In this document: positions 7,182 through 53,247 of the stretch, one piece after another
Position numbering within the stretch: the first letter of the stretch is position 1
Layout of the letters: each line of letters opens with the position of its first letter
NCBI RefSeq assembly: GCF_009914755.1
Contig: NC_060930.1
Direction: 5' to 3' (one strand)
Origin: the human T2T-CHM13v2.0 reference genome, Homo sapiens
DNA: 64,000 nucleotides
Translations under genes and position numbers: made by a program
Notes under the pieces: model-generated
Database searches by the model: none
Seen by the model: the letters and a program-made list of their open reading frames with translations, nothing else
Told to the model about the DNA's origin: nothing

Positions 7182-7282
7182 GATTACCTTGACTGCATCA
7201 GGGACCAAACAAAACTTCCCCTGGGGACCGAAGAAAGATCAGCCCTTTTTGGAAACATACAGGATATCTACCACTTCAATAG
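7182..7282 (+). CDS. PLEKHG1: PLEKHG1 coding exon, 101 nt, DH domain ([33 protein letters not shown]+ag); phase 0 to 2
   Basis: ctcacag acceptor ends 7181; AG|gtaagt donor at 7283; DH motif LFGNIQDIY. Confidence 0.95.
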
Positions 7283-13372: not shown

Positions 13373-14892
13373 CAATTTATTTATATTTTTAAAAGAATTT
13401 TTAAAAATTCTTTTTTAAAATTAAAAAAAATTTTTTTTCAGACATGTTCATAAATGACAATAGTATATAATTTCTTTCCTTGTCCTGTCTTTGTTCAGTA
13501 TTGGTATATGACTAGATTTAAATTGCTGTTTCACAAAATCTTCCATCATGAAATGTTTTGGAATACAATTGAAATTTTATTTTTGTGTTCTTTTTGATAC
13601 CCAAATATCTCTTTCTCTTACAATCCCTATGATAACCTAGAAATTTAAGTCTCTGATTTGGTGTCTGGAATAAACAACCACAAGGTCAGGAAACTGGGTT
13701 AGTCAAAAGAAACCACTTTCCTCATTTGAACCAGCCCCCTAAAATCCAACAGCGTGTTTTACTGCAAACCAAAAAAGAAATGCCAAGTTTTAAAAAGAAA
13801 GTACCCCTCTCTTGGAATACAGAAACGTTACCTAAACAGTAATTTGAGCCTTTCTTTAAGAATGAAGAGTGAGGAAATAAAGATCATTCCTCCATATTGA
13901 ATGTCTGATTTTAGACATTCAATTGTTTCTTAGGAGATTAAAATCATCTAAGCTCTCTCCTTCCCTCAGAAGATCAGAGTAAAACTTTCCTTTTTCCTTC
14001 AACTCTTTTCTTTATTCAGTATACCTATGTTGAGTCATTACTCTGTATGAAACCCTGGACTAGTCTAATAGTGTAAGGATGAATGACACCATTGTACAAC
14101 AGAGGCAATAAGCCACATAATCAAGGAAGGAACAGAATGCTTTGTGAATGCTGAGGAATGTGCAATTAATTTTGTCTGAGGGGGACTTTACAGAGCAACT
14201 AACACATGTCTGAAGACAAAAGAAATTCTTTGGGCCACGCTTTTTCTTCTCCTTGCAATGTAATTTAAGTAGTGAAATCATGGGATTCGTACAACAGCAA
14301 GGCAAAGGAAGGTGGAATCGTTTTCTTTTTTAGTGCATTTTCATACCACCAAAATGTCTGACTTCTGCACAATGGTAGAGATATTTTTACCCACGCTTTT
14401 TTCAACTGGACTTTTCCAGGCCAGTGCCTGGAAAGTATGAGTGAAATTATTGGAGTAATTTCTCTTCCATGCATATGTGTCTCTGTGGATGCAGTGGGTT
14501 AAAATGCCAGCTGATTAGGCAACGGGAAAGGGAAGTGCTGCTCAGACCGGAAGGGGAGGGGCCGCATCCTCGAATCTCTCTCAGTGTAAAGCAATAGAAG
14601 GTTCAAGGTCATAATACAATTCCTGCCTCAAAGTTCGCATCAGGGGTCAGAAAAGCTTCACATGGGATATGTTCTGTAAAAGAGAACAGTGTTTCCTCTC
14701 ATTTCCCACCCAACTAAGGGACCTGAGCTCAAGTAGGAAATTTTATAATTGTTTTAACCGTCCTACTCAAAAAGAAGAAAATATTTAAAATACTCAAGGA
14801 AACGAGAAAAGATCCAAATCCTGAAGGCAAGATGACTCTAATTTAGCTTAGAATACAAAACACAATCTGTGAGTTATTTCTTACTCCTAGTG

Positions 14893-16406
14893 TACATGTG
14901 CGGTTGCACATCAGCCACACTGATGCAATCCTGGTGCACATGTGCAGTTGCACATTACTCACACTGATGCAATCCTGGTGCACATGTGCGGTTGCACATT
15001 ACTCACACTGATGCAATCCTGGCGTACATGTGCAGTTGCACATCAGCCACACTGATGCAATCCTGGTGCACATGTGTGGTTGCACATTACTCACACTGAT
15101 GCAATCCTGGTGCACATGTGCAGTTGCACATTACTCACACTGATGCAGTCCTGGTGCACATGTGCGGTTGCACATTACACTGATGCAATCCTGGTGCACG
15201 TGTGGTTGCACATTACTCACACTGATGCAATCCTGGCGTACATGTGCGGTTGCACATCAGCCACACTGATGCAATCCTGGTGCACATGTGCAGTTGCACA
15301 TTACTCACACTGATGCAATCCTGGTGCACATGTGCGGTTGCACATTACTCACACTGTTGCAATCCTGGCGTACATGTGCGGTTGCACATCAGCCACACTG
15401 ATGCAATCCTGGTGCACATGTGTGGTTGCACATTACTCACACTGATGCAATCCTGGTGCACATGTGCGGTTTCACATCAGCCACACTGATGCAATCCTGG
15501 TGCACATGTGCGGCTGCACATCAGCCACACTGAGGCAATCCTGGTGCACATGTGCAGTTGCACATTACTCACACTGATGCAGTCCTGGTGCACATGTGCA
15601 GTTGCACATTACACTGATGCAATCCTGGTGCACATGTGCGGTTGCACATCAGTCACACTGATGCAATCCTGGTGCACATGTGCAGTTGCACATTACTCAC
15701 ACTGATGCAATCCTGGCGTACATGTGCGGTTGCACATCAGCCACACTGATGCAATCCTGGTGCACATGTGTGGTTGCACATTACTCAACACTAATGCAAT
15801 CCTGGTGCACATGTGCGGTTGCACATCAGCCACACTGATGCAATCCTGGTGCACATGTGCAGTTGCACATTACTCACACTGATGCAGTCCTGGTGCACAT
15901 GTGCGGTTGCACATTACACTGATGCAATCCTGGTGCACATGTGTGGTTGCACATTACTCACACTGATGCAATCCTGGTGCACATGTGCGGTTGCACATCA
16001 GCCACACTGATGCAATCCTGGTGCACATGTGCAGTTGCACATTACTCACACTGATGCAATCCTGGTGCACATGTGCGGTTGCACATTACTCACACTGATG
16101 CAATCCTGGTGTACATGTGCGGTTGCACATCAGCCACACTGATGCAATCCTGGTGCACATGTGTGGTTGCACATTACTCACACTGATGCAATCCTGGTGC
16201 ACATGTGCAGTTGCACATTACTCACACTGATGCAGTCCTGGTGCACATGTGCGGTTGCACATTACACTGATGCAATCCTGGTGCACGTGTGGTTGCACAC
16301 TACTCACACTGATGCAATCCTGGTGCACATGTGCGGTTGCACATCAGCCACACTGATGCAATCCTGGTGCACATGTGCTGTTGCACGTTAGTTACACTGA
16401 TTCAAT
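14893..16406. repeat. Minisatellite/VNTR, 44-bp unit, 34 full units plus one degenerate unit
   Basis: Unit cacatgtg(cg/ca/tg)gttgcacat(cagc/tact)cacactgatgcaatcctggtg read unit by unit; 40-, 42- and 45-bp variants occur. Confidence 0.98.
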
Positions 16407-16680
16407 GAGAAATCCGTAGTCTCCACCCCCGAGGCTGTAACTGTAGAATCATCCCGTGTCTGGTATTTAGGAGTGTCTTCAGTGGCTGATGCACTGCATT
16501 CCAGGCCCCGACTGTGCTCCCATTGTACTTTGCGTGTTTGCATATCTTTTATAGCGAGATGTCTTCCTCTATCCCACCACACTCTCTGTTGCCCACCAAA
16601 TTCCAGCCACTGTGGCTTCCTTTGTATACCTCACAGGAGAACCCACCAAGCTCATTCTATCCTGGTTTGCAATTCCATTC

Positions 16681-16970
16681 TTTTTTTTGAGACGGAGTCT
16701 CACTCTGTTGTCCAGGCTGGAGTACAGTAATGCAATCTAGGCTCAGTGTATCCTCCGCCTCCCAGGTTTAAGCAATCCTCCCTCCTCAACCTCCCAAGTA
16801 GCTGGAATTACAGGCGCTCACCATCACGCCTGGCTAATTTTTGTATTTTTAGTAGAGAGGGGGCTTCACCATGTTGGCCAGGTTGGTCTCAAACTCCTGG
16901 CCTCAGGTGATCCGCCCGCCTCAGCCTCCCAAAGTGTTGGTATTATAGGCATGAGCCACTGTACCCAGCC
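16681..16970 (-). mobile_element. Alu (S-type)
   Basis: full dimer. Confidence 0.9.
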
Positions 16971-17691
16971 TGCAATCACATTCTTAAATGACTTTCTCTT
17001 CCAAGACTTCCTGCACTCAAATATCACCTCCTCAGAGAACCTTCCCTGACTGTCCCAACCTTCTTTCACCCTCGCCCAGCCTCAGTTGCTCTCTATCGTA
17101 CTACCCTCTATTTCCTTCATATCACATAATACAATGTGATATTATGTTGTTTATTCACACTTATTAGTACTTTTCACCCCTGGTCAGATCATAAACACAT
17201 GGGACAGGGCCTTTGTCCACCTTCTTTACCCCTGTAACCTTCTTGCCTGACATCCAGTCTTTTAGCAATTGCTTATTGAATAGCAAGCAGACAAAGTGGA
17301 TAGGAACAGCTTCATGGGGATGATAGCCCCAGTGACAAGAGGATGAGAGAAATGCCATTACTTTCTCTTTACTAGTACCATTTTTATTGTGTTTATCCTG
17401 TTCTAGAAAAAGGTTGTAAAGGAAAGCTGACCAGGTAACTCAAACAAGACTTGTCTAGTAGGCAGTACCATGTTGAAGATATGACAGTGTGGAGTCTGGC
17501 CCTCAGCTTTGAGTGGAACAGCAAACAAATCTTTCAATAGATGTGTTTCTAAGAGAGTGCAGGACTGGGATTCAGAAGGCCTGAATCTAACCATGACTGT
17601 GGCCATGCATTATTGGCAGTGTGACCTAAGGTAAGCTACATCCTTTAATAAGCCATGGTTTCCTCACCTTAAAATTAGGGATCGGAACTGA

Positions 17692-24932: not shown

Positions 24933-25002
24933 TGAACTTCTGCAAGATTTGGAAAACTGTGAAAATGATCCTGTGGCCATAGCAGAGTGTTTTGTGTCCA
25001 AG
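24933..25002 (+). CDS. PLEKHG1: PLEKHG1 coding exon, 70 nt ([24 protein letters not shown]); phase 2 to 0
   Basis: ttttattag acceptor; AAG|gtaagc donor; completes the split Ser codon ag|t. Confidence 0.95.
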
Positions 25003-51861: not shown

Positions 51862-53247
51862 ACAAAATGGACCAGTCACTAGAGATGACTAGAATAGCCT
51901 GTGAAAGACATCAAAGACCCAACTGAGGCTGGCCCCCATGAATCAGTGTGATGACGTCATTTCAAAATCTGCTCAGCAGCTTGGAAACTACTGGTGAAAA
52001 CCGTGGTGTGTGTGGGTTCCTCCAGGTTGGGAACCGGCAGAGCTGGTAGGGGAAGGTTCCCAGGGCGGGGGTGGGGAGGGTGCCAGTGAGCACGCAGTTG
52101 CAGTAATTGGGCATGACATTAGGCTGAGTGAAGAGGAAAACCAGCTGGCGACAGAGGCGTGGGGTGAGGGACTGCAGTATTGTCATAAAGCCCGGTTCAG
52201 CAGGACTTAATGTGAGAGAGAAGGAAATACCCTAATCTGTAATTGAAGAAGGGACTTTTGGAGTCCTGCCTTAGAGGTGGGACGGTTTTGAGTGTGATCA
52301 GGTTCTGGAGGTGGCTCTGATTCTGTGCTGCTGCTCTGGAGTGGAGGAAAAGGTCATTAGAAAGTGGTCAAGGAACTAGGGTGGTGGGTGGATTATTCAC
52401 ATGGATGGTGAAACAGTCCAAGTTGGGGCTGGGAGGAGTGAGGTGGAGCAGACAATGGGATGATGATCATGAAAATTGAACTGGGTGGAAAATAAGGGCT
52501 GAGATTTCTGAGAAAGGGGACAGTCTGTTTTGTTCTCTGTATATTTTGACAAGCATTTGAAGCTTGTTCTCAGGACTGCCAGCAATGATTTGGTCCTCAG
52601 GAAATGAATGTGCATAGGTGTGGACTTGGACCTAAGCATGAGTTTTCATTTCGTCAGGGTGTTATGAGATGAAAGGGAGCTCATGCAGAGAGGGGACTGC
52701 ATTTTCTTTATGATTAGTCATTTTGTTGCTGGCCTGGTGCCTTAGAATGCCCTTCTGAGCAATGGCAGAGTATCTTTGATGGGCCCCACCCATTGTTTAC
52801 CTGTCTGCTGGGAAAATCAAAATTGCTAACAAGATTCTGAAAGGCAGTTACAAAATGAGACCCCCTTACATACCTGTCTTTCTCCCACGCTAGGCGTGTG
52901 TGCCTCAGGAAGTTCCCTTTAAGTATTCAAATGGTTAATATAGTCAATATAACATCGTACTTTCTCCCCAAGTTGTCGATCCTTTCTATCTAAAAACATC
53001 TTTTCAGTTACAACTTATTGAGCATACACACTGTGCTGAGTACTTTATATTCTTATTTCACCCTCACCAAAATATGTTATGAGGTAGTTCTTATTCTTCC
53101 CATTCTAGAAAAAATAAAAACAGAGGCTGAGAGACATTAAATAAACTGCCCAAGTTTATATAACTAGTACATGACCAAGCCTGGATTGGTCTATCTGGCT
53201 CCAAAGAGCATCCTAACCACATTATTCCCACTGGCAATAAAAACACC

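What the first reader, a model, noticed from the sequence alone, without database searches (positions are those of the whole stretch)
14893..16406. Intronic 44-bp VNTR is a homotypic array of 27 perfect C/EBP-ATF (ATF4) elements: candidate copy-number-tunable stress-response enhancer
Seen: 27 of 34 full units contain exactly TGATGCAAT, all in one orientation. The exceptions are units 6, 16, 23 and 31 (TGATGCAGT), 11 (TGTTGCAAT), 15 (TGAGGCAAT) and 21 (TAATGCAAT). The 44-bp period is about four helical turns. Most units also carry the E-box-containing palindrome GCACATGTGC, and two 42-bp units carry CACGTG. Established: TGATGCAAT/ATTGCATCA is the composite CARE/AARE bound by ATF4-C/EBP heterodimers in the amino-acid and integrated stress responses (e.g. 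DDIT3/CHOP, SLC38A2). The human TRIB3 promoter has a 33-bp VNTR whose CARE copy number scales expression. Inference: this array has far more sites and could act as a polymorphic ISR enhancer or an ATF4 sink. The target could be PLEKHG1 or, from my recall of the locus, the next gene downstream, MTHFD1L, a mitochondrial one-carbon enzyme in a pathway induced by ATF4. SNP arrays and short reads would miss the length variation.
Basis: partly seen in the sequence, partly recalled or inferred. Interest (0 to 1): 0.85.

Follow-up and report, generated by a model that had tools for sequence, protein, structure and literature searches.

The report
Intronic minisatellite carrying 27 ATF4-type motifs
A 1.5-kb tandem repeat inside a PLEKHG1 intron really does hold 27 perfect copies of a stress-response DNA motif, but the sequence evidence suggests they are a by-product of copying one 44-base unit, and whether they do anything in cells is untested.

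Summary
Window 14885-16406 is a 44-bp tandem array of 35 copies. The motif fits the published C/EBP-ATF consensus NTGATGNAAN. This is the only place in T2T-CHM13 where the search found three perfect 9-mers 20-50 bp apart.

The number 27 is not 27 pieces of evidence, because one unit was amplified.
- Five of eight arbitrary 9-mer patterns of the same composition also form such arrays somewhere in the genome.
- Arrays of the relaxed motif are about as common as arrays of its reversed control, 75 against 63 matches.
- Within the array the motif is not better kept than the rest: 5 of 9 motif columns vary against 13 of 35 others.
- A motif-breaking variant was spread four times by block duplication.
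- CpG decay is typical of methylated bulk DNA.
- No RefSeq functional element lies within 23 kb.

Most likely this is a neutral minisatellite with incidental binding potential for ATF4/C-EBP. Enhancer function is possible and untested. The sink idea is quantitatively weak.

The parts
14885..16406 (+). 44-bp minisatellite, 35 units, 1,522 bp. It lies in the PLEKHG1 intron between the exons at 7182-7282 and 24933-25002. 27 units end in the perfect C/EBP-ATF word TGATGCAAT, which spans each unit junction.
   Evidence: TRF; motif counts; unit list. It was the only locus found in T2T-CHM13 with a 220-base query.
14885..14928 (+). First (edge) unit. It diverges at two positions (TCCTAG, GTGTAC) but carries the perfect motif.
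14929..15230 (+). Seven-unit block, unit types BCDEFGH. It includes the TGATGCAG unit, then a 40-bp unit, then a 42-bp CACGTG unit.
   Evidence: Unit typing. Its first 220 bases match 16016-16235 at 99% identity.
16016..16317 (+). Second copy of the seven-unit block, unit types BCQEFGR. This shows that the array grew or was homogenised by multi-unit duplication.
16362..16406 (+). Last (edge) unit. It is the most degenerate and its motif is broken (TGATTCAAT).

Best explanation
This is an ordinary minisatellite found at a single locus. One ~44-bp stretch of unique intronic DNA was amplified head to tail by slippage or unequal exchange, and multi-unit block duplications later remodelled the array. 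The founding unit happened to contain the 9-mer TGATGCAAT, so amplification produced 27 perfect, same-orientation C/EBP-ATF words automatically.

The array therefore has real in-vitro binding potential for ATF4-C/EBP and C/EBP dimers. That is an inference from the published consensus. It may be bound opportunistically where chromatin allows.

Nothing in the sequence indicates that the motif has been maintained by selection or that the array is a dedicated stress enhancer.

Shown here: the anatomy, the uniqueness in this search, the block duplication, the lack of motif constraint, the CpG decay, and the chance expectation.

Inferred: the amplification mechanism, neutrality, and binding potential.
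For: 1. Array anatomy and exact motif counts.
2. Only this locus matched a 220-base query in the whole reference.
3. Unit-type string ABCDEFGHIBJIEKLFMNBIOPFGEPBCQEFGRPS contains a duplicated seven-unit block, 99% identical over 220 bases.
4. The motif-breaking unit (TGATGCAG) is followed by a 40-bp unit in all 4 of its 4 occurrences. That fits one mutation spread by duplication and not removed.
5. The motif is not specially preserved. Eleven of the 44 consensus 9-mer offsets have more than 27 exact copies. 5 of 9 motif columns vary against 13 of 35 other columns, Fisher p = 0.45.
6. CpG observed/expected is 0.25 at 50% G+C. The main CpG site reads CG 17, CA 10, TG 5, CT 1, the deamination pattern of germline-methylated DNA.
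7. Chance. Eight patterns of this base composition were tested as triple 9-mer arrays with 20-50-bp spacers: four words and their built-in reversals. Five of the eight have at least one array in the genome, with match counts 14, 10, 2, 0, 0, 0, 4 and 42. The relaxed motif gives 75 matches against 63 for its reversed control.
8. No RefSeq functional element lies between window 5000 and 27000. The nearest are an hESC enhancer about 23 kb upstream and two 'active regions' about 35 kb downstream.
9. No Rfam family matches. There is no unusual single-strand fold, z = -1.6. The longest stop-free run is 87 codons.
Against: - The match to the ATF4 motif is perfect, and the density of 27 sites in 1.5 kb was not seen elsewhere. 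All 14 genome matches for three perfect 9-mers 20-50 bp apart lie in this array.
- The ATF4 census reports 88,368 merged peaks, mostly intronic or intergenic, and about 71% contain the motif (PMC10637723, section 6 read whole). A good share of strong motifs may therefore be bound in some cell type, and occupancy here is quite possible.
- Reads from inside a repeat are often discarded. Missing annotation is therefore weak negative evidence.
- The constraint test has little power. There are few independent mutations, and concerted evolution blurs them.
- A neighbouring gene (MTHFD1L) is reported as dependent on ATF4.
- The TRIB3 VNTR shows that amplifying a CARE can matter.
Confidence: 0.68

Rival explanations
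1. The array is a working ATF4-C/EBP-dependent enhancer of the integrated stress response. Its output scales with unit number, and it acts on MTHFD1L (88 kb away) or PLEKHG1 (promoters 55-176 kb upstream).
For: - 27 perfect consensus sites.
- The only cluster of this kind found in the reference.
- The TRIB3 precedent, where 1 to 5 copies gave an approximately 5-fold rise in reporter activity (PMC7425993 passages).
- MTHFD1L falls when ATF4 is targeted (PMC10758965 passage).
- Most ATF4 peaks are intronic or intergenic.
Against: - No constraint on the motif within the array.
- The broken motif was propagated four times.
- Methylation-type CpG decay.
- No annotated enhancer within 23 kb.
- The existence of such an array is expected by chance.
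- ATF4 ChIP-seq signal is described at the MTHFD1L promoter itself (PMC10350079 passages).
- No paper links PLEKHG1 to ATF4 binding or to a VNTR in the main texts searched.
- Unlike TRIB3, the array is not at a promoter.
Confidence: 0.12
2. The array is a decoy or sink that titrates ATF4 or its C/EBP partners away from other targets.
For: High local density of optimal sites.
Against: - 27 sites per haplotype compare with about 33,000 perfect 9-mers expected per genome from base composition.
- The rest of the window holds 12 consensus-level sites in 62,478 bp, which extrapolates to several hundred thousand per genome.
- The census found 88,368 ATF4 peaks.
- The array would add on the order of 0.1% of strong sites.
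Confidence: 0.03
3. The array is used through its other words, not the CARE. Candidates are the palindrome GCACATGTGC, which contains E-box-type CANNTG words (22 units), and the best-kept word GTTGCACAT (31 units). It would bind bHLH, C/EBP-like or other factors, or act as a structural or chromatin element.
For: GTTGCACAT and the words spanning CACTGATGCA are kept in 31 units, more than the CARE. CATGTG is about 30-60 times denser in the array than outside it.
Against: - Any word in an amplified unit is enriched in the same way.
- The palindrome overlaps the decaying CpG and varies most.
- The assignment of these words to factors is from my recall and was not tested with a motif library.
- No fold stands out.
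Confidence: 0.05

Closest known systems
TRIB3 promoter 33-bp VNTR (PMC7425993)
   Same: It is a tandem repeat in which each unit carries a C/EBP-ATF element in one orientation. My relaxed pattern search finds both loci. TRIB3 shows five motif copies 33 bp apart at chr20:424239-424378, just inside the gene start at 424107.
   Different: TRIB3: 1-5 copies, at the promoter. The unit is conserved as a single copy across mammals. Reporter and expression effects are shown.

Here: 35 units, deep in an intron, 55-176 kb from PLEKHG1 starts and 88 kb from MTHFD1L. The motif shows no constraint. Conservation, polymorphism and activity are untested.
Large intronic VNTRs with proposed regulatory roles, e.g. 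the CACNA1C intron 3 repeat (PMC12452837; bioRxiv 10.1101/2025.09.15.676436; listings and abstract starts only)
   Same: A kilobase-scale array of tens-of-bp units inside an intron of a large gene. It is hard to genotype with short reads and is proposed to modulate expression.
   Different: The CACNA1C repeat has population long-read structure, disease-linked sequence variants, and add/remove experiments according to the abstracts. Nothing of the kind exists for this array in the papers I could search.
Ordinary neutral minisatellites
   Same: Unit of 10-100 bp, divergent edge units, internal higher-order blocks, and CpG decay.
   Different: None structurally. The only distinguishing point is that the unit happens to spell an optimal ATF4-C/EBP word.
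Single CARE/AARE elements of stress genes
   Same: The same core word class, NTGATGNAAN.
   Different: Those are single or paired sites near promoters or in first introns of induced genes. This is a 27-fold array far from any promoter.

Membership tests
Minisatellite / VNTR | Head-to-tail copies of a 10-100-bp unit forming an array of hundreds of bases to kilobases | tested here: met
   Period 44, 35.0 copies, 1,522 bp
Minisatellite / VNTR | Copy number varies between individuals | not testable with these tools
   Only one haplotype (T2T-CHM13) is readable. Block duplications at 99% identity suggest recent turnover, which is an inference. No paper mentions this repeat.
[quoted passage not shown] | Sequence fits the consensus NTGATGNAAN | tested here: met
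   27 of 35 units fit. The eight others break a core position. The consensus is from PMC10637723.
[quoted passage not shown] | Occupied by ATF4 with a C/EBP partner in cells | not testable with these tools
   No ChIP data are on hand. The main text does not mention PLEKHG1 or MTHFD1L.
[quoted passage not shown] | Confers induction by amino-acid or ER stress on a linked gene | not testable with these tools
   Needs reporter or deletion experiments.
Regulatory VNTR of the TRIB3 type | The motif-bearing unit is under constraint (conserved motif) | tested here: not met
   Only within-array variation was tested. 5 of 9 motif columns vary against 13 of 35 others, p = 0.45. Eleven of 44 consensus 9-mers are better kept than the CARE. 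The broken motif was spread 4 times. Cross-species conservation is not testable here.
Regulatory VNTR of the TRIB3 type | Lies in or next to a promoter or annotated enhancer of the regulated gene | tested here: not met
   No RefSeq functional element in window 5000-27000. The nearest are about 23 kb and 35 kb away. Transcript starts are 55-176 kb (PLEKHG1) and 88 kb (MTHFD1L) away. The annotation is incomplete for repeats.
Regulatory VNTR of the TRIB3 type | Copy number correlates with expression | not testable with these tools
   No genotype or expression data are available.
Interspersed repeat / transposable-element-derived array | Related copies elsewhere in the genome | tested here: not met
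   All 10 matches of a 220-base query lie within this array. Closed regions and very common words are not shown by that tool.

The most novel reading that the evidence does not exclude
[quoted passage not shown] It is bound under stress, acts as a length-dependent enhancer on MTHFD1L or PLEKHG1, and varies in length between people. It would then be a hidden, SNP-invisible modifier of the stress response or of mitochondrial one-carbon metabolism.
Probability: 0.1. Interest if true: 0.75.

Novelty: new member of a known kind. Interest (0 to 1): 0.33.

Why it matters
If the array were bound and active, it would extend the TRIB3 principle from a 1-5-copy promoter repeat to a 35-copy intronic one. 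In that principle, the copy number of a stress element sets expression. It would also point to a variant class that SNP arrays and short reads miss, near a one-carbon-metabolism gene.

If the array is neutral, as the sequence evidence favours, it is a cautionary case. A perfect motif repeated 27 times in a tandem array counts as one observation, not 27. Arrays of arbitrary 9-mers are common enough that one carrying any given well-known motif is expected.

The locus is cheap to test. The array is unique in the genome, so array-specific k-mers can be counted directly in existing ChIP-seq reads.

Tried and rejected
- Interspersed repeat. A whole-genome search with 220 bases of the array found no copies elsewhere, so this is rejected.
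- Structured RNA. No Rfam match at gathering threshold in 14000-17500.
- Unusual DNA hairpin or cruciform. Three units folded as DNA give z = -1.6, and 10 of 200 shuffles fold as well. This is unremarkable, although the 12-base palindrome in the CAG-type units can pair between units.
- Coding. The longest stop-free run across the array is 87 codons and the period is not a multiple of three. Rejected.
- Literature.
  - PLEKHG1 with VNTR (6 papers, none about this repeat).
  - PLEKHG1 with 'tandem repeat' (7 papers, none relevant by title and abstract start).
  - PLEKHG1 with ATF4 (6 papers, none relevant by title and abstract start).
  - MTHFD1L with VNTR (1 paper, unrelated).
  - A 17-base string of the unit (0 papers).
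- The first MAFFT alignment of units misplaced the two 42-bp units. I replaced it with pairwise alignment to the consensus.
- Dating the array from the divergence of its two unit subtypes (TTACTC against TCAGCC). I abandoned this because there are three differences in 44 bases and concerted evolution removes any clock.
- Comparison with other primates or mammals. No tool here reaches those genomes.
- The TF names attached to the E-box-like and C/EBP-like words, and the HOMER form of the ATF4 motif, come from my recall and not from a motif-library scan.

Full report
**What is there**

Window 14885-16406 (T2T-CHM13 chr6:151,976,885-151,978,406) is one tandem array with period 44, 35.0 copies, 88% matches and 2% indels. 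I cut it at the CCTGG anchor, which gives 35 units. Anchor spacings are 44 bp (26 times), 40 (4), 42 (2) and 45 (1).

The array lies in the PLEKHG1 intron between the exons at 7182-7282 and 24933-25002, on the sense strand. It is not among the soft-masked repeats of the assembly.

TGATGCAAT occurs 27 times in the array, always on the + strand. It is absent from the + strand of the rest of the window and occurs twice on the - strand elsewhere. The exceptions are TGATGCAGT in units 6, 16, 23 and 31, TGTTGCAAT in 11, TGAGGCAAT in 15 and TAATGCAAT in 21, numbered from 1. The final degenerate unit has TGATTCAAT.

GCACATGTGC occurs 22 times. CACGTG occurs only in the two 42-bp units, which lack an AT relative to the consensus. 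The period is 4.19 helical turns at 10.5 bp per turn, so the sites are not in helical phase (my arithmetic).

The ATF4 census paper defines the C/EBP-ATF motif as NTGATGNAAN and finds it in about 71% of ATF4 ChIP-seq peaks (PMC10637723, passages, section 6 read whole). The 27 words fit this consensus, and each of the eight variant words breaks a core position.

The TRIB3 precedent is as described (PMC7425993, abstract and passages):
- It is a 33-bp promoter VNTR with TT(G/A)CATCA in each unit and 1-5 copies.
- Reporter activity rises approximately 5-fold from 1 to 5 copies under arsenite or ATF4 overexpression.
- Copy number correlates positively with TRIB3 mRNA.

**More than chance?**

One amplified unit yields as many motif copies as there are units, so the count of 27 is a single observation. 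I searched the whole reference for three copies of a 9-mer separated by 20-50 bases.
- The perfect CARE gives 14 matches, all inside this array. Its reversed control gives 10.
- Three rearranged 9-mers of the same composition give 2, 0 and 4 matches. Their reversed controls give 0, 0 and 42.
- So 5 of the 8 arbitrary patterns have at least one such array.

With the relaxed word TGATGYAA and 15-45-bp spacers there are 75 matches at roughly two dozen loci, against 63 for the reversed control. That search recovers the TRIB3 VNTR at chr20:424239-424378, with five motif copies in this reference. TRIB3 starts at 424107, so the method works as a positive control.

One array with this motif is therefore expected by chance, and CARE-bearing arrays are not enriched as a class. 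Two caveats apply. The tool hides closed regions and very common words, and its counts are lower bounds.

**How the array evolved**

There are 19 distinct unit types, and the order is ABCDEFGHIBJIEKLFMNBIOPFGEPBCQEFGRPS.
- A seven-unit block at 14929-15230 recurs at 16016-16317. Its first 220 bases match at 99%.
- The unit ending in TGATGCAG is followed by a 40-bp unit in all four of its occurrences. This fits one motif-breaking mutation that was copied four times by block duplication and not purged.
- The first and last units are the most divergent, as is usual at minisatellite edges.

**Is the motif protected?**

No. Among the 44 consensus 9-mers, eleven have more than 27 exact copies, for example GTTGCACAT with 31. 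After aligning each unit to the consensus, 5 of the 9 motif columns carry a substitution in some unit, against 13 of the 35 other columns (Fisher p = 0.45).

The test is weak because there are few independent events and concerted evolution acts on the array. It still gives no hint of constraint.

CpG observed/expected is 0.25 at 50% G+C. The main CpG reads CG in 17 units, CA in 10, TG in 5 and CT in 1. That is the deamination pattern of DNA methylated in the germ line. It is not the pattern of a protected regulatory island, which is my inference.

**Context**

RefSeq lists no enhancer, silencer or other functional element between window 5000 and 27000. The nearest are an hESC enhancer at -8393 to -7892 and two 'active regions' at 51903-52392. 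This is weak negative evidence, since repeat-derived reads are often dropped.

The PLEKHG1 transcript starts lie 55, 93 and 176 kb upstream, and the MTHFD1L start lies 87.9 kb downstream.

MTHFD1L is reported to fall when ATF4 is targeted (PMC10758965, passage). ATF4 ChIP-seq signal is described at the MTHFD1L promoter (PMC10350079, passages and figure legends). Its ATF4 dependence therefore already has a promoter-proximal explanation.

**The sink idea**

Outside the array the window has 12 TGATGNAA sites in 62,478 bases. Base composition predicts about 33,000 perfect 9-mers per genome. The census counts 88,368 ATF4 peaks. Twenty-seven sites cannot titrate much.

**Other readings checked**

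- No Rfam family matches.
- There is no unusual single-strand fold.
- There is no long open frame.
- There are no related copies elsewhere in the genome.

**Literature**

No paper in the searched library connects PLEKHG1 with a VNTR or tandem repeat at this place, or with ATF4 binding. None connects MTHFD1L with a VNTR, and none prints the unit's sequence. The ATF4 census main text mentions none of PLEKHG1, MTHFD1L or tandem repeats.

Supplementary tables, both ATF4 peak lists and VNTR-eQTL catalogues, were closed and may contain the locus. Intronic VNTRs with regulatory claims exist, for example CACNA1C intron 3 (listings and abstract starts only).

**Verdict**

The motif assignment is sound, and the array is the densest perfect-CARE cluster the search found.

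The sequence-level tests that could have favoured function all come out neutral. These are constraint, excess over chance, protection from CpG decay, and annotation. I therefore rate a neutral minisatellite with incidental ATF4/C-EBP binding potential at about 0.68. A working, length-tunable stress enhancer rates about 0.1-0.12.

Opportunistic occupancy in some cell type is quite possible, given how many strong motifs are bound in the census. I cannot put a measured number on it.

The hypothesis is cheap to test with existing ChIP-seq reads by k-mer counting and with long-read assemblies.

Noticed in passing
G000 chr20:424239-424378 (outside the window): The TRIB3 promoter VNTR appears in this reference with five CARE copies 33 bp apart (three overlapping triple matches). 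The TRIB3 paper states that GRCh38 has three copies and that alleles range from 1 to 5.
   Followed up: partly
G000 chr20:65145773-65146668; chr15:32405813-32406030; chr12:130620798-130622172; chr5:17904859-17905003; chr16:54882346-54882500; chr3:130529036-130529363 (outside the window): Other tandem arrays have units that carry the relaxed C/EBP-ATF word TGATGYAA. The chr5 array has it on both strands in a 24-bp unit. None was examined further.
   Followed up: no
window 14885-16406: The array is not among the assembly's soft-masked repeats of 100 bases or more, although neighbouring interspersed repeats are. Pipelines that rely on soft-masking to flag repeats would treat it as unique sequence.
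   Followed up: no
window 14929-16317, units with GTGCACATGTGCAG: In the units where the CpG has decayed to CA, the sequence TGCACATGTGCA becomes a perfect 12-base palindrome. The CG-state units have a 10-base palindrome. The change follows from CpG decay, and its consequence, if any, is unknown.
   Followed up: partly
window 66173-67168 relative coordinates (beyond the window end, inside PLEKHG1): A processed pseudogene, PDCL3P5, is annotated between the array and MTHFD1L, within the PLEKHG1 gene span. It does not change MTHFD1L being the next protein-coding gene.
   Followed up: no
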